From assembly GCF_013315695.1 (NCBI RefSeq), contig NZ_CP054353.1: a stretch of 64,000 nucleotides of DNA; one strand, 5' to 3'. The translations under genes and the position numbers were made by a program. The notes beneath the pieces were generated by a model. The model had not been told where the DNA came from and did no database searches. It was given only the letters and a program-made list of their open reading frames with translations. Shown in pieces: positions 2,928 through 26,349 of this stretch. This DNA is from Escherichia coli. Lineage in GTDB: Bacteria > Pseudomonadota > Gammaproteobacteria > Enterobacterales > Enterobacteriaceae. Position 1 is the first letter of the stretch. Each line of letters starts with the position of its first letter.

Positions 2928-3674
2928 ATGGCAACACCAAATCCCCTTGAGCCGGTAAAAGGTGCCGGTACCACTCTGTGGGTTTACAACGGCAAGGCTG
3001 ATGCTTACGCAAACCCGTTGTCAGACGATGGCTGGCAGCGACTGGCTAAGGTGAAGGATCTGACGCCGGGCGAGATGACGGCTGAACCCTACGATGATAA
3101 CTACCTGGATGATGAAGACGCGGACTGGACCGCGACCGGGCAGGGACAGAAATCTGCAGGTGATACCAGTTTTACGCTGGCCTGGAAACCGGGAGAGGAA
3201 GGCCAGAAAGGGCTTATAGGCTGGTTTGAAAGCGGCGATGTCCGGGCCTATAAAATCCGTTTTCCGAATGGCACGGTGGATGTGTTTCGTGGCTGGGTCA
3301 GCAGTATCGGTAAGGCCGTGACGGCGAAAGAAGTGATCACCCGCACGGTGAAAGTCACTAACGTGGGTAAACCTTCTGTAGCGGAAGAACGCAGCAAAAT
3401 TACGCCGGTCACTGCGATTAAGGTAACGCCGACAGGTACGGTTGAAAAAGGGAAAACAACCACCCTGACCGTTACTGTGGAACCGGAAAATGCAACGGAT
3501 AAGACATTCAGGGCGATTTCCGCCGATCCATCAAAAGCCACCATTAGCGTGAAAGATATGACGATTACTGTGACGGGGGTTAAGGATGGAAAAGTCAGCA
3601 TCCCTGTGATTTCCGGTAATGGTCAGTTTGCTGCGGTGGCTGAAATTACCGTTAATAATGTGCCGGGTGGCTAA
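2928..3674 (+). CDS. V: Major tail tube protein V with C-terminal Ig-like domain
   Basis: 248 aa; near-colinear with lambda gpV ([10 protein letters not shown]...[20 protein letters not shown]...). Confidence 0.9.
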
Positions 3675-3692: not shown

Positions 3693-4124
3693 ATGTTCCT
3701 GAAAACAGAACAATTTGAATATAACGGTGTATCCGTCACGCTTTCTGAGCTGTCTGCGCTGCAGCGTATTGAGCATCTTGCCCTCCTGAAACGGCGGGCA
3801 GAAGAGGCTGAAGCCAGCGGCAACCTGCAGGTGAGTGTGGAAGATCTTGTCAGAACCGGCGCGTTTCTGGTGGCGATGTCCCTGTGGCATAACCATCCAC
3901 AGAAAACGCAGTCACCGTCAATGAATGAGGCCGTGATGAAGATAGAGCAGGAAGTGCTCACCACCTGGCCTGCCGATGCCATTGCCCGGGCGGAAGACGT
4001 GGTGTTGTGCCTGTCCGGGATGATCGAAGCTGTTCGTCCGGATACTGATATTACTGAAGTGGCGAAAAATAACACGCTGACTGATGATGATTTTTCTGCG
4101 GGAAAGTCTTCGACGGCGAGCTGA
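3693..4124 (+). CDS. G: Tail assembly chaperone G
   Basis: 143 aa; MFLKTEQFEYNGVSVTLSELSALQRIEHL... matches lambda gpG. Confidence 0.85.
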   Translation: MFLKTEQFEYNGVSVTLSELSALQRIEHLALLKRRAEEAEASGNLQVSVEDLVRTGAFLVAMSLWHNHPQKTQSPSMNEAVMKIEQEVLTTWPADAIARAEDVVLCLSGMIEAVRPDTDITEVAKNNTLTDDDFSAGKSSTAS

Positions 4125-4564
4125 ACTTTGCCCTCAGACTGGCGCGTGAGATGGGGAGACCCGACTGGCGCGCCATGCTTGCCGGGATGACATCCACCGA
4201 ATATGCCGACTGGCACCGTTTTTACCGCACGCATTATTTTCAGGATACCCAGCTGGATATGCATTTTTCCGGGCTGACGTACGCTGTACTCAGCCTGTTT
4301 TTTTGCGATCCGGATATGCATCCCTCTGATTTCAGTCTGCTTGTCCCCCGGCATGAGGAAGAGCAGGTGGAGAGGCCGGATGAGGACAAAATGCTGATGC
4401 AGAAAGCGGCAGGACTTGCCGGAGGCGTCCGGTTCGGTGGGGACGGAGGGCGCGATATTTTATCGTCTGCGGATGTGGCGGATGTCATGGTGGATGATGC
4501 CGCATTAATGATGGCTTCAGCGGGGATTCCGGGAGGTGTGAGATATGTCCCAGCCGGTTGGTGA
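3693..4564 (+). CDS. T: Tail assembly chaperone G-T fusion (via -1 frameshift at 4100-4106)
   Basis: T-frame ORF 4151-4564 resembles lambda gpT and overlaps the start of H; geometry identical to the lambda G/GT system. Confidence 0.7.
4100..4106 (+). other. Programmed -1 ribosomal frameshift slippery heptamer GGGAAAG (G to G-T fusion)
   Basis: Heptamer is read GCG-GGA-AAG in the G frame (frame 0); the downstream T ORF is in the -1 frame (frame 2) and is open from this point. Confidence 0.75.
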
Positions 4565-7118
4565 TCTTGTTATTGACCTTAGTCTGGATGCTGTCCGTTT
4601 CGATGAGCAGATGAGCCGGGTAAGGCGTCATTTTTCAGGTCTGGATACCGACGCCAGAAAAACCGCCAGTGCTGTTGAACAGGGCCTGAGCCGCCAGGCG
4701 CTGGCTGCACAAAAAGCAGGGATTTCCGTCGGGCAGTATAAAGCGGCCATGCGAACCCTGCCCGCACAGTTTACGGATATCGCCACGCAGCTTGCCGGTG
4801 GTCAGAATCCCTGGCTGATCCTGCTGCAACAGGGCGGTCAGGTGAAGGACTCCTTCGGCGGGATGATCCCCATGTTCAGGGGGCTTGCCGGTGCGATCAC
4901 CCTGCCGATGGTCGGGGTCACCTCGCTGGCGGTGGCGACAGGTGCGCTGGTGTACGCCTGGTACCAGGGAGATTCCACGCTTTCAGCGTTTAATAAAACT
5001 CTGGTTCTTTCCGGTAATCAGTCCGGACTGACTGCCGATCGTATGCTGACTCTCTCAAGAGCCGGGCAGGCAGCAGGGCTGACGTTTAACCAGGCGAGAG
5101 AGTCACTGGCAGCCCTGGTGAATGCCGGTGTGCGTGGTGGTGAACAGTTTGATGCCATCAACCAGAGTGTCGCGCGTTTTGCGTCTGCATCCGGTGTGGA
5201 GGTGGATAAAGTCGCTGAAGCCTTCGGGAAGCTGACCACTGACCCGACGTCGGGACTGATGGCGATGGCGCGCCAGTTCCGTAACGTGACGGCAGAGCAG
5301 ATTGCGTATGTTGCACAGCTGCAGCGTTCCGGAGACGAGGCCGGGGCATTGCAGGCGGCGAACGATATCGCCACGAAAGGCTTTGATGAGCAGACCCGTC
5401 GCCTGAAAGAAAACATGGGAACACTGGAGACCTGGGCGGATAAAACAGGGAAGGCATTCAAATCGATGTGGGATGCCATTCTGGATATCGGTCGTCCGGA
5501 ATCCTCAGCGGATATGCTCGCCAGTGCGCAGAAGGCATTTGATGAGGCGGATAAAAAATGGCAGTGGTACCAGAGCCGGAGCCAGCGCCGGGGAAAGACC
5601 TCCTCTTTTCGTGCGAACCTTCAGGGGGCATGGGATGACCGGGAAAATGCCCGTCTGGGTCTGGCAGCGGCCACGCTGCAGTCGGATATGGAAAAAGCCG
5701 GTGAACTGGCGGCAAGGGACCGGGCTGAGCGTGAGGCGTCACAGCTGAAGTATACCGGAGAGGCGCAGAAGGCGTATGAGCGCCTGCAGACGCCGCTGGA
5801 TAAATATACCGCCCGTCAGAAAGAGCTGAATAAGGCCCTGAAAGACGGAAAAATCCTGCAGGCGGATTACAACACGCTGATGGCGTCGGCAAAAAAGGAT
5901 TATGAATCGACGCTGAAAAAGCCGTCAGGTGTGAAGGTGTCTGCCGGTGAGCGCCAGGAAGACCGGGCGCATGCAGCCATGCTGGCGCTTGAAACCGAGC
6001 TCAGGACGCTGGAAAAACACAGCGGTGTGAATGAGAAAATCAGCCAGCAGCGCCGGGATTTATGGGAAGCGGAAAATCAGTATGTGGTCCTGAAAGAGGC
6101 CGCCACGAAACGGCAGTTATCTGAGCAGGAAAAATCCCTGCTGGCCCATGAGAAAGAAACGCTGGAGTACAAACGCCAGCTGGCTGAGCTGGGCGACAAG
6201 ATAGAACACCAGAAGCGGCTGAATGAGCTGGCACAGCAGGCGGCGCGGTTTGAACAGCAGCAGAGCGCGAAGCAGGCGGCAATCAGCGCAAAAGCCCGCG
6301 GCCTCACTGACCGTCAGGCGCAGCGGGAGTCGGAAGAGCAGCGCCTTCGTGAGGTGTACGGTGATAATCCGGCTGCGCTGGCGAAGGCCACATCGGCACT
6401 GAAGAACACCTGGTCTGCGGAGGAGCAGCTTCGTGGAAGCTGGATGGCCGGGATGAAGTCCGGCTGGGGCGAGTGGGCGGAAAGTGCGACGGACAGTTTT
6501 TCGCAGGTTAAAAACGCGGCCACGCAGACCTTTGACGGTATTGCACAGAATATGGCGGCGATGCTGACCGGCAGTGAGCAGAACTGGCGTGGTTTCACCC
6601 GTTCCGTGCTCTCCATGCTGACAGAGATTTTTCTGAAGCAGGCAATGGTGGGGATTGTCGGAAGTATCGGCAGCGCCATTGGCGGGGCTGTTGGTGGTGG
6701 CGCATCCGCGTCAGGCGGTACAGCCATTCAGGCTGCGGCGGCGAACTTCCATTTTGCGACCGGAGGATTTACGGGAACCGGCGGCAAATATGAGCCAGCG
6801 GGGATTGTTCACCGTGGTGAATTTGTCTTCACGAAGGAGGCAACCAGCCGGATTGGTGTCGGCAACCTGTATCGTCTGATGCGCGGGTATGCGGAAGGTG
6901 GTTATGTCGGCGGTGCCGGAAGTCCGGCGCAGATGCGGCGGGCGGAAGGTATCCGGTTTGAGCAGAACAACAGCGTGGTGATTCAGAACGACGGTATCAA
7001 CGGACAGGCCGGGCCGCAGCTGATGAAAGCGGTGTATGAGATGGCCCGTAAAGGTGCGCAGGATGAGATTCAGGCGCAGATGCGTGATGGCGGCGTATTT
7101 TCCGGAGGCAGGCGATGA
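4545..7118 (+). CDS. H: Tail tape measure protein H
   Basis: 857 aa; colinear with lambda gpH over its full length (lambda H is about 853 aa). Confidence 0.95.
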   Translation: MSQPVGDLVIDLSLDAVRFDEQMSRVRRHFSGLDTDARKTASAVEQGLSRQALAAQKAGISVGQYKAAMRTLPAQFTDIATQLAGGQNPWLILLQQGGQVKDSFGGMIPMFRGLAGAITLPMVGVTSLAVATGALVYAWYQGDSTLSAFNKTLVLSGNQSGLTADRMLTLSRAGQAAGLTFNQARESLAALVNAGVRGGEQFDAINQSVARFASASGVEVDKVAEAFGKLTTDPTSGLMAMARQFRNVTAEQIAYVAQLQRSGDEAGALQAANDIATKGFDEQTRRLKENMGTLETWADKTGKAFKSMWDAILDIGRPESSADMLASAQKAFDEADKKWQWYQSRSQRRGKTSSFRANLQGAWDDRENARLGLAAATLQSDMEKAGELAARDRAEREASQLKYTGEAQKAYERLQTPLDKYTARQKELNKALKDGKILQADYNTLMASAKKDYESTLKKPSGVKVSAGERQEDRAHAAMLALETELRTLEKHSGVNEKISQQRRDLWEAENQYVVLKEAATKRQLSEQEKSLLAHEKETLEYKRQLAELGDKIEHQKRLNELAQQAARFEQQQSAKQAAISAKARGLTDRQAQRESEEQRLREVYGDNPAALAKATSALKNTWSAEEQLRGSWMAGMKSGWGEWAESATDSFSQVKNAATQTFDGIAQNMAAMLTGSEQNWRGFTRSVLSMLTEIFLKQAMVGIVGSIGSAIGGAVGGGASASGGTAIQAAAANFHFATGGFTGTGGKYEPAGIVHRGEFVFTKEATSRIGVGNLYRLMRGYAEGGYVGGAGSPAQMRRAEGIRFEQNNSVVIQNDGINGQAGPQLMKAVYEMARKGAQDEIQAQMRDGGVFSGGRR

Positions 7119-9812: not shown

Positions 9813-12800
9813 ATGGGAAAAGGTGGCGGTAAGGCACACACGCCTCGTGAGGCGAAGGATAATCTCAAATCCACGCAGATGATGAGTGTGATTGATGCGA
9901 TTGGTGAGGGACCGATAGAAGGTCCGGTGAAGGGACTGCAGAGTATTCTGGTGAACAAAACCCCGCTGACGGACACGGACGGTAATCCCGTGATACACGG
10001 TGTGACTGCGGTCTGGCGTGCCGGGGAGCAGGAGCAGACACCACCGGAAGGCTTTGAGTCCTCCGGAGCTGAAACCGGACTGGGCGTGGAAGTGACGAAG
10101 GCAAAACCGGTGACGCGCACCATTACGTCCGCGAACATTGACCGCCTGCGGGTTACCTTCGGGGTGCAGTCACTGGTGCAGACCACGTCAAAGGGCGACC
10201 GTAATCCTTCCTCTGTCCGGATTCTGATTCAGTTACAGCGTAATGGCCGCTGGGTGACGGAAAAGGATGTCACCATTAACGGCAAGACCACCTCGCAGTT
10301 CCTGGCCTCGGTGATTCTGGATAATCTGCCTCCCCGGCCCTTTAACATCCGGATGGTCAGGGAGACGGCGGACAGCACCACGGACCAGCTGCAGAATAAG
10401 ACGCTGTGGTCGTCATACACCGAAATCATCGATGTGAAACAGTGCTACCCGAACACGGCCATTGTGGGGCTGCAGGTGGATGCGGAGCAGTTCGGCGGCC
10501 AGCAGATGACGGTGAACTACCATATCCGCGGTCGCATCATCCAGGTGCCGTCAAACTATGACCCGGAAAAACGCACGTACAGTGGTATCTGGGACGGCAG
10601 CCTGAAACCGGCATACAGCAACAACCCGGCCTGGTGTCTGTGGGACATGCTGACTCACCCGCGCTACGGCATGGGAAAACGTCTGGGGGCGGCGGATGTG
10701 GACAAGTGGGCGCTGTATGCCATCGGGCAGTACTGCGACCAGACGGTCCCGGATGGTTTCGGGGGGACCGAGCCGCGGATGACCTTTAATGCGTACCTGG
10801 CACAACAGCGTAAGGCGTGGGACGTTCTCAGTGATTTCTGCTCTGCGATGCGCTGTATGCCGGTATGGAACGGCCAGACGCTGACGTTCGTTCAGGACCG
10901 TCCGTCGGATGTGGTGTGGCCGTACACCAACAGCGATGTGGTGGTGGATGATAACGGCGTGGGTTTCCGCTACAGCTCCAGTGCCCTGAAGGACCGGCAC
11001 ACGGCAGTGGAGGTGAATTACACCGACCCGCAGAACGGCTGGCAGACCTCCACGGAACTGGTGGAAGACCCGGAAGCCATACTGCGCTACGGACGCAACC
11101 TGCTGAAGATGGACGCGTTCGGCTGTACCAGCCGCGGTCAGGCCCACCGTGCCGGGCTGTGGGTGATAAAGACCGAACTGCTGGAAACGCAGACGGTGGA
11201 TTTCACGCTTGGGTCACAGGGGCTGCGTCACACACCCGGTGACATCATTGAAATCTGTGATAACGACTATGCCGGGACCATGACCGGCGGACGTGTCCTG
11301 TCCATCGATGCCGCCAGCCGTACCCTGACGCTGGACCGGGAGGTGACACTGCCGGAGACCGGCACGGCCACTGTTAATCTGATTAACGGCAGCGGTAAGC
11401 CGGCGAGCGTGGCCATCACCGCACACCCCGCGCCTGACCGGATACAGGTCAGCACCCTGCCGGATGGTGTGGAGACATACGGTGTGTGGGGACTCTCCCT
11501 GCCGTCACTGCGTCGTCGCCTGTTCCGCTGTGTCTCCATCCGGGAAAACACGGACGGCACCTTTGCCATCACGGCGGTGCAGCACGTACCTGAAAAAGAA
11601 GCCATCGTGGATAACGGGGCCCGCTTTGAGCCGCAGTCAGGCACCCTGAACAGCGTTATCCCACCGGCAGTGCAGCACCTGACGGTGGAGGTGAGCGCAG
11701 CTGACGGCCAGTATCTGGCGCAGGCTAAATGGGACACGCCGCGGGTGGTGAAGGGCGTGCGCTTCAGTCTGCGCCTGACCAGTGGTAAGGGAACGGATGC
11801 CAGACTGGTGACCACCGCCATCACCGCAGACACGGAGCACCGTTTCAGCGGCCTGCCACTGGGGGAATACACCCTGACGGTGCGGGCCATTAACAGCTAC
11901 GGCCAGCAGGGCGAACCTGCGACCACCACCTTCCGGATTAACGCGCCTGCAAAACCCGCCACCATTGAGCTGACGCCGGGGTATTTTCAGATAACGGCGG
12001 TACCGGTGCTGGCGGTGTATGACCCGACGGTGCAGTTTGAATTCTGGTTCTCAGAAAAACGCATCACGAACACGGCACAGGTGGAAAAATCTGCCCGTTA
12101 TCTGGGGACCGGCAGTCAGTGGACTGTCCAGGGGAGCCGGATTAAGCCGGGGACGGATTTCTGGTTTTACGTGCGAAGCGTCAACCTGGTGGGAAAATCT
12201 GCTTTTGTGGAAGCCAGCGGGCAGCCCAGCAATGATGGTGAAGGGTATCTGGAAATTTTCCGGGGGCTGATAGATGAGACGCTTCTGGGGCAGGCACTGA
12301 AAGAGCGCATTGATGCTTCAGCGCTGCGTACGGAGGTCACGCAACTGGAAGAAGATATCCGTCAGCGGATGGACACGGATATCGCAGAAGTGACCCGGAA
12401 AATCGGGAAGGCGGAAAACAGCCTCACGCAGCTGGTTGCGAAAAAGAATGAGGACCAGACACTGGCCATCGCGCAGGTGAGCCAGAAAGTGGACCGGGTG
12501 AGCAGTGAAATCTCACAGACTGTCAGCCAGGGGCAGTCAGAAAACGCCCGACAGATAGCACAGGTCCGCCAGTACGTGGATAAAAAAGGGAGTGAAATTA
12601 CCTCGACCACGGATAAAAAGCTGGGTGACCAGGCCGTGACCATACAGCAAATCCAGCGGGTTCAGTCAGACACGCGCAATGAGCTGAATGCCATGTATAT
12701 GCTGAAGGTGCAGAAAACAAAAAACGGTATTCCCTATGTGGCCGGGATTGGCGCGGGGATTGAGGATGTTGATGGTCAGACCCTGAGTAACATTCTGCTG

Positions 12801-16875: not shown

Positions 16876-17224
16876 ATATAAAAAGTAAAAAGCCGCAGTA
16901 ACTTGTCATGACAGGATACTGCGGCTGGCTGGTTAACTTTCGATAGTGCGAGTATTGAATGATTTCCAGCTGTTACTGATTTTATATAACTGCAGTGGAA
17001 TTATTCAACACACAGGCAAAACGGAATAAGCTGAGAAAAAAAGCGTGCTTTCCCAATCTGGGGTAAATCACATCTGAATGACACCTGAAAACAGGTGGTG
17101 GCCTCAAGAAGGCTTGGAATATTCTTCTTTAATGTTATGTAATTTATTGATTTTTCGTGTACGATTTTAAGACATTTATTCCAAGAAAAATTTTTAACTC
17201 TTTGATTTTTCGACTCTGTATCAT

Positions 17225-17286
17225 CGGTCTCGAAAACCGGAGTAGGGGCAACTCTACCGGGGGTTCAAATCCCCCTCTCTCCGCCA
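17225..17286 (+). tRNA. Partial tRNA-Ser (3' 62 nt, serU-like, anticodon loop to CCA end): prophage attachment-site repeat, not a full gene
   Basis: CGGTCTCGAAAACCGGAGTAGGGGCAACTCTACCGGGGGTTCAAATCCCCCTCTCTCCGCCA matches the 3' part of E. coli tRNA-Ser(CGA) as I recall it; the 5' acceptor/D-arm is absent. Confidence 0.7.
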
Positions 17287-17830
17287 CTTTATCAATGACT
17301 TATCTCCCGACTTCCCGCCTTGCTTTTCCTAAACAGAACAATCGTAGAATATTCTTGAAGGGTTAGATCGTCACTGTTTTCTGTTCGATACTGTGACATT
17401 CAGCACTTGATTCGCTATGGAGCTGACAGGAAGGTTTCGAGCGAAAATCTACAGTTATTCAGTCGTTTTCTTATCGATCACCATTATTCTTTTAGACATT
17501 GATCCTATGAAACTGCCGCAAAGTTGCTGGCGGGAACTGAAGTTGCGTAGAGAAGGGGTCAATAATTGAGCCAAAAAAGGAACGCGGCCGTCAGATTAAA
17601 GCCGCGGGACAAAGTCCATAATTTCCAAGAGTTGTTGAATTTCCCAGCTTTTTTGAAAGCCTTTGTATTATACTAACAAGTAAAAAAGGTTTAAACACCA
17701 AAATTAACCTATATTTCTGGTTAGCTTTACCATGACAGATGACTTGCTCCTGGAAACATTTGCGCTGCCAGTCTGTATGGCTGAGTTGTGTATTTATTGT
17801 TCGCCTTTTTCGCAGTTTTTTTCTACAGAC

Positions 17831-17867
17831 ATAATAAAAAAGACACGACTCAAGTATGAGCGTGTCT
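17831..17867 (-). terminator. Rho-independent terminator of zinT
   Basis: AGACACG ... CGTGTCT stem followed on minus strand by a U-run (plus-strand ATAATAAAAA). Confidence 0.6.
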
Positions 17868-17955
17868 GAGTTTGTCTTACTTATTTGTCTTGGTAAATTA
17901 TTGTTGTTACTACCAGGCACTGTTCTGTTAAATAACTGAAGTCAGCGCAAAAAAA

Positions 17956-18606
17956 TCAATGAGACATCATCTCCTCGACCACTTCTTCGCTACTCAACTG
18001 ATAGGGATAATACGTTGGCCAGTTTTCCATTTCATTCAATAAAGATTGCTGGGAATCATTACCCATAAAAATGTGAAAATGAGATGATTTTCGTGGTGCA
18101 ATTATATGATCGCTAAATTGTATATATTTAGGGGCTTTGCTTTCAGGATCTTTACATTCGAATAAGTAACGAACGCCTTTCTTGCCTGATTTATAGGTGA
18201 GTATTTTGTATCCATCGTAATCATATTTACAGGATGTTGTTTCATTATTTCTATGGAATTCGACAATGCCGTCCTCAATGCCAATCATTTCGATATCTGT
18301 CGCATAACCTTTGCGATAATAATCTTTAATTTCAGCAAATGGTTTGGTTTTATCTGCATCCGCTTTCTTCTGAAAGACGGGATCAAGTTTGCCACTTTGC
18401 AGTAAAGGGTAAACGGATTGCCAGACTCCATCCCAGTCACTGAGCGTTCGGTTTTGTACATTGGTATCATCAAAAACACCATTAGCAGCTTTTTGTTCGA
18501 CCTCTGTTAAGGGTTTGCCGTGTGAGTGATGACCATGCGAAAAGGCAGGAGCGCTAACAATAAAGACACCTAAAGCAACAGCCAGTTTATGAAGACGAAT
18601 CGCCAA
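17956..18606 (-). CDS. zinT: Metal-binding periplasmic protein ZinT (YodA)
   Basis: 216 aa; His-rich N-terminus HGHHSHG after signal peptide; matches E. coli ZinT. Confidence 0.9.
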
Positions 18607-25801: not shown

Positions 25802-26349
25802 TATGTATTCCCTTGTGATTATAATCTTCATGAATATATCAATAAGTGCTGTTATCCAAAAAAAGCACATTTGGATACTATTCTATGAAGTTCATTTTAT
25901 TTTAAAGATTACATGTAACAAATGTATTTAAAAGATTTCAAAATGTTTCTAATCTATTTAATATAATTCATAGTTATGAATTCTGAATATAAATATTCAC
26001 GAATATTATGGATATATATCAATATGTTATGAGTTGATCGAAAAGATAGGGAGTATCAATGATTGTTGCGCTAAACGGCTGGTGTGATCTCGCGCACATT
26101 AATGAAGGCATAAAAAAAAGCCGGCATCATGCCGGCCCAAAAAAATATAAACAAGACGATAAAAGGCTAATAACGGAGGCATGATGACACAGAAAAATAA
26201 AAAGGTATAATTGTAATCAGTACCAATATATTGATTGAATGAATTAATAAAGCCGAAATCAAAGATAAATAACATCGTTCAAATCGATTTTTCCTGTATT
26301 CACCGCCGTTGCGCAAAATTTATCTATTTGTTCAAAAAATGATTGAGTC

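What the first reader, a model, noticed from the sequence alone, without database searches (positions are those of the whole stretch)
3693..4564. Canonical lambda G/G-T -1 frameshift site conserved
The slippery heptamer GGGAAAG is present at 4100-4106 in exactly the register required (G frame GCG-GGA-AAG; T ORF in the -1 frame). Low novelty, but it confirms that T should be annotated as a G-T fusion rather than as the stand-alone ORF starting at 4151.
Basis: partly seen in the sequence, partly recalled or inferred. Interest (0 to 1): 0.2.

Follow-up and report, generated by a model that had tools for sequence, protein, structure and literature searches.

The report
Lambda-type G/GT tail chaperone frameshift site
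This is the well-known lambda "G-T" programmed -1 ribosomal frameshift in an E. coli prophage, where a small share of ribosomes slip back one base to make a fused tail-assembly protein; it is ordinary biology, and its only practical value is that automatic annotation still lists T as a separate gene.

Summary
GGGAAAG lies at 4100-4106 in X_XXY_YYZ phase of gene G (3693-4124; GCG GGA AAG). The -1 frame is open from 4091 to 4564 and encodes the lambda T domain. The site aligns exactly with lambda's: same heptamer, same phase, 22 nt before the G stop.

T should be read as a 290-aa G-T fusion, join(3693..4106,4106..4564).
- T-frame conservation starts right after the heptamer, 15 codons upstream of ATG 4151.
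- That stretch varies mainly at T-frame third codon positions.
- ATG 4151 is present in only 12 of 42 distinct relatives; the rest encode Phe.
- The curated T model (TIGR01715) matches the stand-alone ORF only from profile position 12, but the fusion from position 1.
- In 167 related loci a shift-prone site sits exactly 42 nt upstream of the ARE(F/M)GRPDW motif.

Novelty is nil. The locus is 100% identical to many E. coli prophages, and Sharma et al. 2014 already list this gpG cluster as a true -1 frameshift with a predicted downstream hairpin. I tested that fold (4114-4184). It is marginal locally and not conserved across the family.

RefSeq annotates T as a stand-alone 137-aa protein, so the annotation point is valid but minor.

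The parts
3693..4124 (+). Gene G: tail assembly chaperone gpG, 143 aa, 15.71 kDa, the zero-frame product
   Evidence: ORF. PF06894 E=3.5e-51. TIGR01674 equivalog E=3.3e-49. Aligns with lambda gpG. Mass.
4100..4106 (+). Slippery heptamer G_GGA_AAG, the site of the -1 shift (Gly-Lys in both frames)
   Evidence: Position and phase. Identical heptamer, phase and 22-nt distance to the G stop in lambda. A shift-prone site sits at the same position, 42 nt upstream of the ARE(F/M)GRPDW motif, in all 167 loci where the motif was found.
4091..4124 (+). G/T overlap window: from the opening of the -1 frame to the G stop codon UGA (4122-4124)
   Evidence: It holds 11 in-phase candidate positions.
4106..4564 (+). 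T segment in the -1 frame, 152 codons, translated only as the C-terminal part of GT. Fusion CDS = join(3693..4106,4106..4564), 290 aa, 32.23 kDa
   Evidence: PF06223 E=3.8e-14. TIGR01715 matches profile positions 1-110 in the fusion. phrog_32165 positions 140-290 of 290. Alignment with lambda gpGT. Mass.
4106..4150 (+). Fifteen T-frame codons (VFDGELNFALRLARE) upstream of ATG 4151. The stand-alone annotation omits them, yet they are conserved as protein.
   Evidence: third-position periodicity; invariant Glu, Phe and ARE. TIGR01715 covers 11 of them.
4151..4153 (+). ATG used by PGAP as the T start. Here it is read as internal Met154 of GT.
   Evidence: RefSeq annotation. It is ATG in only 12 of 42 distinct relatives. 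Weakest anti-SD pairing of eight starts. It lies inside the predicted helix 4140-4175.
4114..4184 (+). Predicted downstream RNA structure, uncertain. Outer helix 4114-4121/4177-4184 begins 7 nt after the heptamer; inner hairpin 4140-4155/4160-4175. Possible moderate stimulator.
   Evidence: MFE -40.5 kcal/mol, z=-3.2. Top 1.3% of local windows, 4.3% when GC-matched. Synonymous-recoding null z=-2.07, with 2.8% of recodings folding as well. Not conserved over 42 relatives. Sharma 2014 Table S4 predicts a structure for this cluster.
2928..3674 (+). Gene V, the major tail tube protein. In lambda it is the binding partner of the T domain. Context only.
   Evidence: PF16461 E=1.2e-67 plus Big_2. Role taken from PMC5009743.
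4545..7118 (+). Gene H, the tape measure protein. In lambda it is the binding partner of the G domain. Its start overlaps the end of T by 20 nt and it has a strong SD.
   Evidence: PF06791 E=3.7e-69 and PF09718 E=3.3e-21. SD pairing -11.6 kcal/mol. Role taken from PMC5009743.

Best explanation
The locus is the tail-assembly-chaperone gene pair of a lambda-like prophage in an E. coli chromosome. It is expressed by programmed -1 ribosomal frameshifting.

1. Ribosomes start at ATG 3693 and translate G. Most terminate at UGA 4122-4124 and release gpG (143 aa).
2. With GGA in the P site and AAG in the A site (4101-4106), a minority of ribosomes slip one base back. The tRNA-Gly and the single E. coli tRNA-Lys (anticodon mnm5s2UUU, which pairs weakly with AAG) re-pair on GGG AAA (4100-4105).
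3. Translation then continues from 4106 in the T frame to 4564 and gives the 290-aa fusion gpGT.
4. By analogy with lambda, the G part of both proteins coats the tape measure protein H, and the T part of the rare GT recruits the major tail protein V. The frameshift rate therefore fixes a G:GT ratio of roughly 30:1, which is needed for correct tail assembly. Neither protein ends up in the virion.

Shown here: the anatomy, register, homology, positional conservation and coding signature. Inferred from lambda: the actual slippage, its rate of about 4%, and the protein functions. A moderately stable structure predicted 7 nt downstream (4114-4184) may raise the rate above what the bare heptamer gives. 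That step is uncertain, about 0.3.
For: - Register and ORF geometry.
- Pfam and NCBIfam identities of G, T, Z, U, V and H, in lambda gene order.
- Junction match to lambda: same heptamer, phase and 22 nt to the stop. The surrounding sequence TTTCTGCGGGAAAGT(G/C)TTCGACGG is nearly identical.
- The 15 codons between the heptamer and ATG 4151 are conserved in the T frame, and T-frame similarity begins at the heptamer in relatives down to 38% identity.
- T-frame third-position periodicity upstream of the ATG, and the ATG not conserved (12 of 42).
- TIGR01715 is truncated at profile position 12 in the stand-alone ORF and complete in the fusion. phrog_32165 spans the fusion.
- Across 167 loci a shift-prone site lies exactly 42 nt before the ARE(F/M)GRPDW motif. 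The heptamer varies (GGGAAAG 85 loci, GGAAAAG 72, AAAAAAG, GGCAAAA/GGAAAAA abutting a TAG), so the site is kept by function rather than by sequence inertia.
- The GenBank records of N15, Gifsy-2 and phage 21 annotate the homologous junction as a frameshift.
- No promoter or terminator lies inside the region.
- Literature: lambda G-T shifts at GGGAAAG and the zero frame is kept about 96% of the time (PMC3296357). The 30:1 ratio, G binding H and T binding V come from PMC5009743. G_GGA_AAG is among the three most shift-prone heptamers in E. coli, and the E. coli gpG cluster G_GGA_AAG_4 is marked '[true]' (PMC4066793).
Against: - No expression data exist for this prophage. Only its late arm is in the window (1 to about 16,900), so it could be defective or never induced.
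- The bare heptamer gave only 0.28% shifting in a reporter (PMC4066793 Table S3). A rate near lambda's 4% therefore needs a context or structure effect that I could not establish. The predicted downstream fold is not conserved family-wide and is only marginal under a synonymous-recoding null.
- G's own Shine-Dalgarno pairing is also weak (-3.0 kcal/mol), so the weak SD before ATG 4151 is not decisive on its own.
- Low-level independent initiation at ATG 4151 cannot be excluded from sequence.
Confidence: 0.93

Rival explanations
1. T is an independent gene, as RefSeq/PGAP annotates it. Ribosomes start at ATG 4151, either de novo or by reinitiation after terminating at the G stop 27 nt upstream, and make a free 137-aa (15.24 kDa) T protein. 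The in-phase heptamer would be incidental.
For: - An ATG-initiated 137-aa ORF exists.
- It is annotated this way in RefSeq and seen on at least 1000 contigs.
- It passes the TIGR01715 cut-off on its own (193 bits against 77).
- The G stop lies close upstream, so coupling is geometrically possible.
Against: - The ATG is replaced by Phe codons in 30 of 42 distinct relatives.
- Protein conservation and third-position periodicity continue 15 codons upstream of it, right up to the heptamer.
- The T family model starts 11 residues upstream of it.
- Its anti-SD pairing is the weakest of the tail-gene starts, with GAG abutting the ATG.
- The ATG is buried in the predicted hairpin.
- In lambda the T domain is reported only as part of gpGT (PMC5009743).
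Confidence: 0.04
2. The shift is a stimulator-dependent signal. The structure predicted at 4114-4184 begins 7 nt after the heptamer. It pauses or strains the ribosome and raises shifting from the roughly 0.3% of the bare heptamer to a few percent. This refines the best explanation rather than replacing it.
For: - MFE -40.5 kcal/mol, z=-3.2, with 0 of 200 shuffles as stable. Lambda gives z=-2.3.
- The spacer of 7 nt is in the usual range.
- Top 1.3% of 94-nt windows in the prophage arm.
- Synonymous recoding folds as well in only 2.8% of samples for the window, 2.5-5% for lambda, N15 and phi80, and 0 of 400 for Gifsy-2 and L167.
- In the 12-sequence panel six pairs change on both sides against 2.9 expected, reached by 3 of 500 shuffles. 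This includes G-C to A-U at columns 16/84 in N15, HK225 and phi80.
- Sharma 2014 measured GGGAAAG at 0.28% bare against 3.8% with moderate stimulators, and flags a predicted structure for the gpG cluster.
Against: - With 42 distinct relatives the fold is not kept. Only 68% of cells are paired, pairs changing on both sides are 8 against 8.3 in shuffles (442 of 500 reach it), and RNAalifold finds no consensus (-1.5 kcal/mol).
- Several lineages fold no better than recoded controls, z from +0.6 to +1.5.
- The GC-matched local percentile is only 4.3%.
- The stems are built from GC-rich Ala/Arg codons of the conserved LAREMGRPDWRA peptide, so protein constraint may explain them.
- Sharma found no reduced synonymous variability for this cluster (RVSS 'N').
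Confidence: 0.3
3. Shifting is stimulated by ribosome collision. A leading ribosome pausing at the slowly decoded UGA stop of G pushes the trailing ribosome into the -1 frame on G_GGA_AAG.
For: Smith et al. 2019 showed about 2-fold stimulation of -1 shifting on this same heptamer by a ribosome stalled at UGA (PMC6815119). The G stop is UGA and its 22-nt distance is conserved among the lambda and N15 types.
Against: - The effect peaks at 8-10 codons of A-site to A-site spacing. Here the spacing is 6 codons (4104 to 4122), too close for two ribosomes to occupy both sites.
- In other lineages of the same family the stop is 1-2 codons after the site, or abuts it, and is sometimes TAG or TAA.
Confidence: 0.03

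Closest known systems
Bacteriophage lambda G / G-T programmed -1 frameshift (Levin, Hendrix & Casjens 1993; Xu, Hendrix & Duda 2013, 2014; lambda record NC_001416, heptamer at 10109-10115)
   Same: - Same heptamer G_GGA_AAG, same phase, and same 22 nt to a UGA stop.
- The same residues span the junction (SAGK|VFDGEL).
- Same gene order Z-U-V-G-T-H-M-L.
- The same Pfam and TIGRFAM families match.
   Different: - The GT product is 290 aa against 279 aa in lambda.
- The linker at the C-terminal end of G is unrelated (RPDTDITEVAKNNTLTDDDF against VNNAPEQTEDAGPAEPV).
- The T domain is 73.5% identical, with a longer acidic insert and a different C-terminus.
- The first codon after the heptamer is GTC rather than GTG.
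- It is resident as a prophage in E. coli chromosomes rather than in the reference phage.
E. coli prophage gpG cluster 'G_GGA_AAG_4' of Sharma et al. 2014 (PMC4066793, Table S4), and near-identical phages PhiR12_1/2/4/5 and Stx2a-converting phages
   Same: This is the same object. The locus is 100% identical in many E. coli genomes, 98.6% identical in the PhiR12 phages and 91.7% identical in Stx2a phages. The cluster is marked as a true -1 PRF, with no SD and a predicted downstream structure.
   Different: Nothing of substance. RefSeq still lists G and T as two separate CDS.
N15 gp14/gp15, HK225, phi80, mEp460, Gifsy-2: the wider lambda-type tail assembly chaperone frameshift family (Xu et al. 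2004, the conserved frameshift in dsDNA phage tail assembly genes)
   Same: G-like ORF followed by a T-like ORF in the -1 frame. The shift site is at the homologous position, 42 nt before ARE(F/M)GRPDW. The A-site codon is AAG.
   Different: - They use G_GAA_AAG (annotated as the slippery sequence in N15), A_AAA_AAG, or GCA_AAA_TAG instead of G_GGA_AAG.
- The distance to the stop is 10 or 7 nt in several lineages.
- The residue equivalent to Met154 is Phe.
E. coli dnaX and IS911/IS3 -1 frameshift signals
   Same: An X_XXA_AAG heptamer that exploits the single E. coli tRNA-Lys(UUU), with two products in a fixed ratio (PMC5009743, PMC4066793).
   Different: Those signals have demonstrated stimulators: an upstream SD-like element and/or a downstream hairpin or pseudoknot, and they shift at much higher rates. 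Here there is no SD-like element upstream (sequence; Sharma marks it 'N'), and the downstream structure is unproven.

Membership tests
Lambda-type G/GT tail assembly chaperone with programmed -1 frameshift | Upstream ORF homologous to lambda gpG | tested here: met
   PF06894 E=3.5e-51, positions 1-119 of 126. TIGR01674 equivalog 166 bits against a cut-off of 74. Aligned with lambda gpG.
Lambda-type G/GT tail assembly chaperone with programmed -1 frameshift | Downstream ORF in the -1 frame homologous to lambda T | tested here: met
   The frame offset is -1. PF06223 E=3.8e-14. TIGR01715 gives 209 bits for the fusion against a cut-off of 77.
Lambda-type G/GT tail assembly chaperone with programmed -1 frameshift | Located between the major tail protein gene and the tape measure gene | tested here: met
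   V at 2928-3674 (PF16461) and H at 4545-7118 (PF06791, PF09718) flank the pair.
Lambda-type G/GT tail assembly chaperone with programmed -1 frameshift | Shift-prone heptamer in X_XXY_YYZ phase inside the G/T overlap, at the position homologous to lambda's | tested here: met
   G_GGA_AAG at 4100-4106, phase 2. It is 22 nt before the stop, as in lambda, and 42 nt before the ARE(F/M)GRPDW motif, as in all 167 loci.
Lambda-type G/GT tail assembly chaperone with programmed -1 frameshift | T has no conserved start of its own, and its coding constraint extends upstream to the shift site | tested here: met
   ATG present in only 12 of 42 relatives, and T-frame periodicity upstream of it. tblastn similarity starts at residue 1-4. 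TIGR01715 profile positions 1-11 lie upstream of the ATG. Weak SD.
Lambda-type G/GT tail assembly chaperone with programmed -1 frameshift | Two proteins, G and GT, are made at roughly 30:1 (about 4% shifting) | not testable with these tools
   This needs a Western blot, mass spectrometry or ribosome profiling. The lambda values come from PMC3296357 and PMC5009743.
Lambda-type G/GT tail assembly chaperone with programmed -1 frameshift | The G domain binds the tape measure protein, the T domain binds the major tail protein, both are needed for tail assembly, and both are absent from virions | not testable with these tools
   Known for lambda (PMC5009743). No solved structure matches by sequence.
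Stimulator-dependent bacterial -1 PRF signals (dnaX / IS911 / IS3 type) | SD-like element 6-17 nt upstream of the heptamer | tested here: not met
   The upstream sequence GATGATGATTTTTCTGC contains no GGAG, AGGA or GGGG element. Sharma 2014 Table S4 marks SD 'N' for the gpG cluster.
Stimulator-dependent bacterial -1 PRF signals (dnaX / IS911 / IS3 type) | Conserved stable hairpin or pseudoknot 5-9 nt downstream | tested here: inconclusive
   Locally there is a stable fold beginning 7 nt downstream, z=-3.2. It is marginal under synonymous recoding, 2.8%. It is not conserved across 42 relatives. Sharma 2014 predicted a structure for this cluster.

The most novel reading that the evidence does not exclude
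The most novel reading still open is that lambda-type G-T mRNAs carry lineage-specific, non-homologous downstream RNA structures. Here that would be 4114-4184, with stronger candidates in the Gifsy-2 and L167 lineages. Each would tune the shift rate from the roughly 0.3% of the bare heptamer to the few percent needed, and the structure would be re-invented whenever the heptamer type or the T sequence changes. A hairpin has been predicted for this cluster (Sharma 2014), but to my knowledge it has never been tested.
Probability: 0.25. Interest if true: 0.25.

Novelty: already known. Interest (0 to 1): 0.08.

Why it matters
Scientifically it adds nothing new. It is a textbook recoding event in a very common E. 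coli prophage module; a match to this 872-base locus is present in 3647 of 5426 complete E. coli genomes.

Its practical value is for annotation. RefSeq/PGAP and gene callers in general list T as a free 137-aa protein, seen on at least 1000 contigs. The exact 290-aa GT product is absent from a 15-billion-protein collection. The functional product is therefore systematically missing from protein databases, and 15 conserved residues are lost.

A simple rule could correct thousands of records automatically: a G-family ORF followed by a T-family ORF in the -1 frame, with a shift-prone site 42 nt upstream of the ARE(F/M)GRPDW motif.

Tried and rejected
1. Family-wide downstream stimulatory structure. 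A 12-sequence panel looked promising. It was rejected at family level with 42 distinct sequences. It is kept only as an uncertain, lineage-specific possibility after the local and synonymous-recoding controls.

2. Ribosome-collision stimulation at the UGA stop. Rejected because the spacing is 6 codons against the 8-10 codon optimum, and because the distance to the stop is not conserved across the family.

3. Upstream SD-like stimulator. None is present in the sequence (Sharma marks it 'N').

4. Transcriptional slippage. The A run is only three bases, too short by established knowledge of slippage. I did not pursue it.

5. Heptamer enrichment as evidence. There is none: 13 observed against 8.7 expected, so the argument rests on position and phase.

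6. Internal promoter or terminator between G and T. None found.

7. Solved structure for G or GT. None found by sequence.

8. Primary papers. Levin 1993 and Xu 2004 and 2013 are not in the held library. What Levin et al. found about downstream sequence requirements could not be checked, and I do not rely on it.

9. First viral-contig scan. It returned mostly near-identical loci, which are uninformative for conservation. I repeated it with a divergent alignment.

10. L003 and L005 failed my junction filter. The cause was an indel in G upstream of the heptamer, not a different site.
Full report
**Observation.** The window carries GGGAAAG at 4100-4106. Gene G is the ORF 3693-4124 (143 aa).
- Base 4100 is the third base of a G-frame codon, so the G frame reads GCG GGA AAG. 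This is the X_XXY_YYZ phase required for tandem -1 slippage.
- Every coordinate and frame statement in the finding is correct.
- The heptamer alone is not significant: 13 copies in the window against 8.7 +/- 2.7 expected.
- Its placement is significant. Only 11 in-phase positions would give an uninterrupted G-to-T fusion, and the chance of GGGAAAG at one of them is about 9e-4.
- Thirteen late genes hold three in-phase X_XXA_AAG sites. Only this one opens into a long -1 ORF of 152 codons; the others stop after 13 and 2 codons.

**What it is.** The window is an E. coli chromosome segment.
- Its first roughly 17 kb are the late arm of a lambdoid prophage (capsid, FI, FII, Z, U, V, G, T, H, M, L, K, I, J, Lom, tail fibre). 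Host genes follow: zinT, msrQP, hiuH, hprRS, hchA.
- G matches PF06894 (E=3.5e-51) and the TIGR01674 equivalog.
- The -1 ORF matches PF06223 and the TIGR01715 equivalog.
- The neighbours match lambda Z, U, V and the tape measure H.
- The 872-base locus is 100% identical in many E. coli genomes. Some match is present in 3647 of 5426 complete genomes. It is 98.6% identical in the PhiR12 phages and 91.7% identical in Stx2a-converting phages.

**Comparison with lambda.** In lambda (NC_001416) the heptamer is at 10109-10115.
- It has the same phase and lies 22 nt before the UGA stop of G, exactly as here.
- The junction peptide is the same: SAGK|VFDGEL.
- The surrounding nucleotides are nearly identical, while the linker just upstream in G is unrelated.
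- The predicted fusion here is join(3693..4106,4106..4564), 290 aa and 32.23 kDa, against 279 aa in lambda.

**Is T a fusion or a stand-alone gene?** Six independent lines favour the fusion.
1. tblastn of the T-frame translation finds relatives down to 38% identity whose similarity begins at residue 1-4 after the heptamer. The ATG is residue 16.
2. In 42 distinct relatives, the 15 codons between the heptamer and the ATG vary mainly at T-frame third positions. Mean entropy is 0.65/0.58/1.17, against 0.61/0.32/1.26 in undisputed T. The G-frame tails differ in length and content (S*, SSTAS*, P*, * and others).
3. The ATG is ATG in only 12 of the 42 relatives. The other 30 have TTC or TTT, which encode Phe.
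4. TIGR01715 aligns to the stand-alone ORF only from profile position 12, but to the fusion from position 1.
5. phrog_32165 is a 290-position profile that G matches at 1-142 and T at 140-290.
6. ATG 4151 has the weakest anti-Shine-Dalgarno pairing of eight tail-gene starts (-2.3 kcal/mol), and GAG abuts the ATG. This is only supportive, because G's own pairing is also weak at -3.0 kcal/mol.

There is no internal promoter or terminator. RefSeq/PGAP nevertheless annotates 'phage tail assembly protein T' as the stand-alone ORF (WP_000533402.1). The 137-aa sequence is on at least 1000 contigs, whereas the exact 290-aa fusion is absent from a 15-billion-protein collection.

**Conservation of the site.** I fetched a diverged panel from GenBank phages and 160 loci from IMG/VR.
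- In all 167 loci where the T motif ARE(F/M)GRPDW could be found, a shift-prone site lies exactly 42 nt upstream of it, in phase.
- The heptamer itself varies.
  - G_GGA_AAG is found in lambda, phage 21, Stx2a phages and this window.
  - A_AAA_AAG is found in Stx1a phages and CP-1639.
  - G_GAA_AAG is found in N15, where the record annotates it as the slippery sequence, and in HK225, phi80, mEp460, Gifsy-2 and a Providencia phage.
  - GCA_AAA_TAG or GAA_AAA_TAG is found in a few lineages, where the site abuts the G stop.
- A fixed position with changing sequence argues for selection on the function. The constant part is the A_AAG (or A_AAA) slip of tRNA-Lys in the A site.

**Mechanism.** Shown here are the geometry, homology, positional conservation and coding signature. 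The rest is inferred from lambda and the E. coli literature.
- Tandem slippage occurs on G_GGA_AAG, and the zero frame is kept about 96% of the time (PMC3296357).
- The gpG:gpGT ratio is about 30:1. G binds the tape measure protein H and the T domain recruits the major tail protein V. Both are absent from the virion (PMC5009743).
- Shifting is sensitive to thiolation of tRNA-Lys(UUU).

**Stimulators.** Sharma et al. 2014 measured G_GGA_AAG at 0.277% with no stimulator, 3.80% with the IS911 stimulators and 43% with the IS3 pseudoknot (PMC4066793 Table S3). A rate of a few percent therefore suggests some help from context. I tested three candidates.
- Upstream SD-like element: none is present (Sharma marks it 'N').
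- Collision with a ribosome paused at the UGA stop: the spacing is 6 codons, against an optimum of 8-10, and the distance to the stop is not conserved in the family. Rejected.
- Downstream structure: the 94 nt after the heptamer fold to -40.5 kcal/mol (z=-3.2). An outer helix 4114-4121/4177-4184 begins 7 nt after the site, and an inner hairpin 4140-4155/4160-4175 buries ATG 4151. Lambda folds the same way (z=-2.3).
  - For: a 12-sequence panel gave modest covariation.
  - Against: with 42 distinct sequences the fold is not kept. Only 68% of cells are paired, pairs changing on both sides are 8 against 8.3 in shuffles, and RNAalifold finds no consensus.
  - Local controls: the segment is in the top 1.3% of windows, or 4.3% when GC-matched.
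  - Synonymous recoding: 2.8% of recodings fold as well for the window, 2.5-5% for lambda, N15 and phi80, and 0 of 400 for Gifsy-2 and L167. Several lineages show no excess.
  - Conclusion: a lineage-specific moderate stimulator is possible, about 0.3, but unproven. A hairpin had already been predicted for this cluster by Sharma et al. (Table S4: G_GGA_AAG_4, gpG, 74 genes, '[true]', SD N, structure Y).

**Comparison with the known, and novelty.** All the sequence-testable defining features of the lambda G/GT family are met (see the membership table). The biochemical features cannot be tested here. The locus is a member of a known family and has been catalogued explicitly for E. coli prophages. 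Novelty is 'already known' and interest is low.

**What I could not check.** The primary papers (Levin 1993; Xu 2004, 2013) are not in the held library. I do not rely on recollection of what they report about downstream sequence requirements. No expression data exist for this particular prophage, and only its late arm lies in the window.

Noticed in passing
window 5591-5597 and 5891-5897 (+), inside tape measure gene H (4545-7118): H holds two more in-phase shift-prone heptamers. G_GGA_AAG at 5591 leads to a -1 frame that stops after 13 codons, and A_AAA_AAG at 5891 to one that stops after 2 codons. Shifting there would only truncate H. The site at 5591 lies in a segment that does not align with lambda H, and the aligned lambda sequence has no heptamer there; the site at 5891 was not compared with lambda.
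   Followed up: partly
window 4151-4564; L001 3459-3872; L173 4151-4564; lambda NC_001416 10115-10549: RefSeq/PGAP annotates T as a stand-alone CDS in every E. coli genome I inspected. The lambda RefSeq record itself lists T as a separate CDS 10115..10549, starting on the last base of the heptamer, rather than as a join with G. Phage 21 (OL657228) is annotated correctly as a two-piece join.
   Followed up: yes
L003 (IMGVR_UViG_2695420576_000005) and L005 (IMGVR_UViG_2526164664_000012), G gene around locus 1800-1910: These two related prophage contigs keep GGGAAAG but carry an indel in G upstream of it, which ends G early or puts the heptamer out of phase. They are either decaying prophages or assembly errors.
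   Followed up: partly
L151, L156, L158, L159 (GGCAAAATAG) and L153 (GGAAAAATAG), at the position homologous to window 4100: In a few relatives the G frame reads GCA/GAA AAA TAG, so the shift site directly abuts the G stop codon. That suggests a single P-site tRNA-Lys slip with a stop codon in the A site, rather than a tandem slip.
   Followed up: no
L087 (Gifsy-2, NC_010393) and L148, 94 nt after the heptamer; also L167: These lineages have by far the most stable downstream folds of the panel, -42 to -49 kcal/mol. None of 400 synonymous recodings folds as well for L087 and L167. They are better candidates for a real frameshift stimulator than the lambda subtype.
   Followed up: partly
window 26113-26203 (-): The only Rfam match above gathering score in the window is the Hfq-binding sRNA rseX (RF01401, 90.8 bits). 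It lies in the host part of the window. No tRNA genes were found.
   Followed up: no
window about 16,900-17,960: The end of the prophage late arm falls here. In the best-matching genome, two small hypothetical genes follow the tail-fibre gene and end at 16,880, and the host gene zinT begins at 17,961. The attachment-site boundary should lie in this gap.
   Followed up: no
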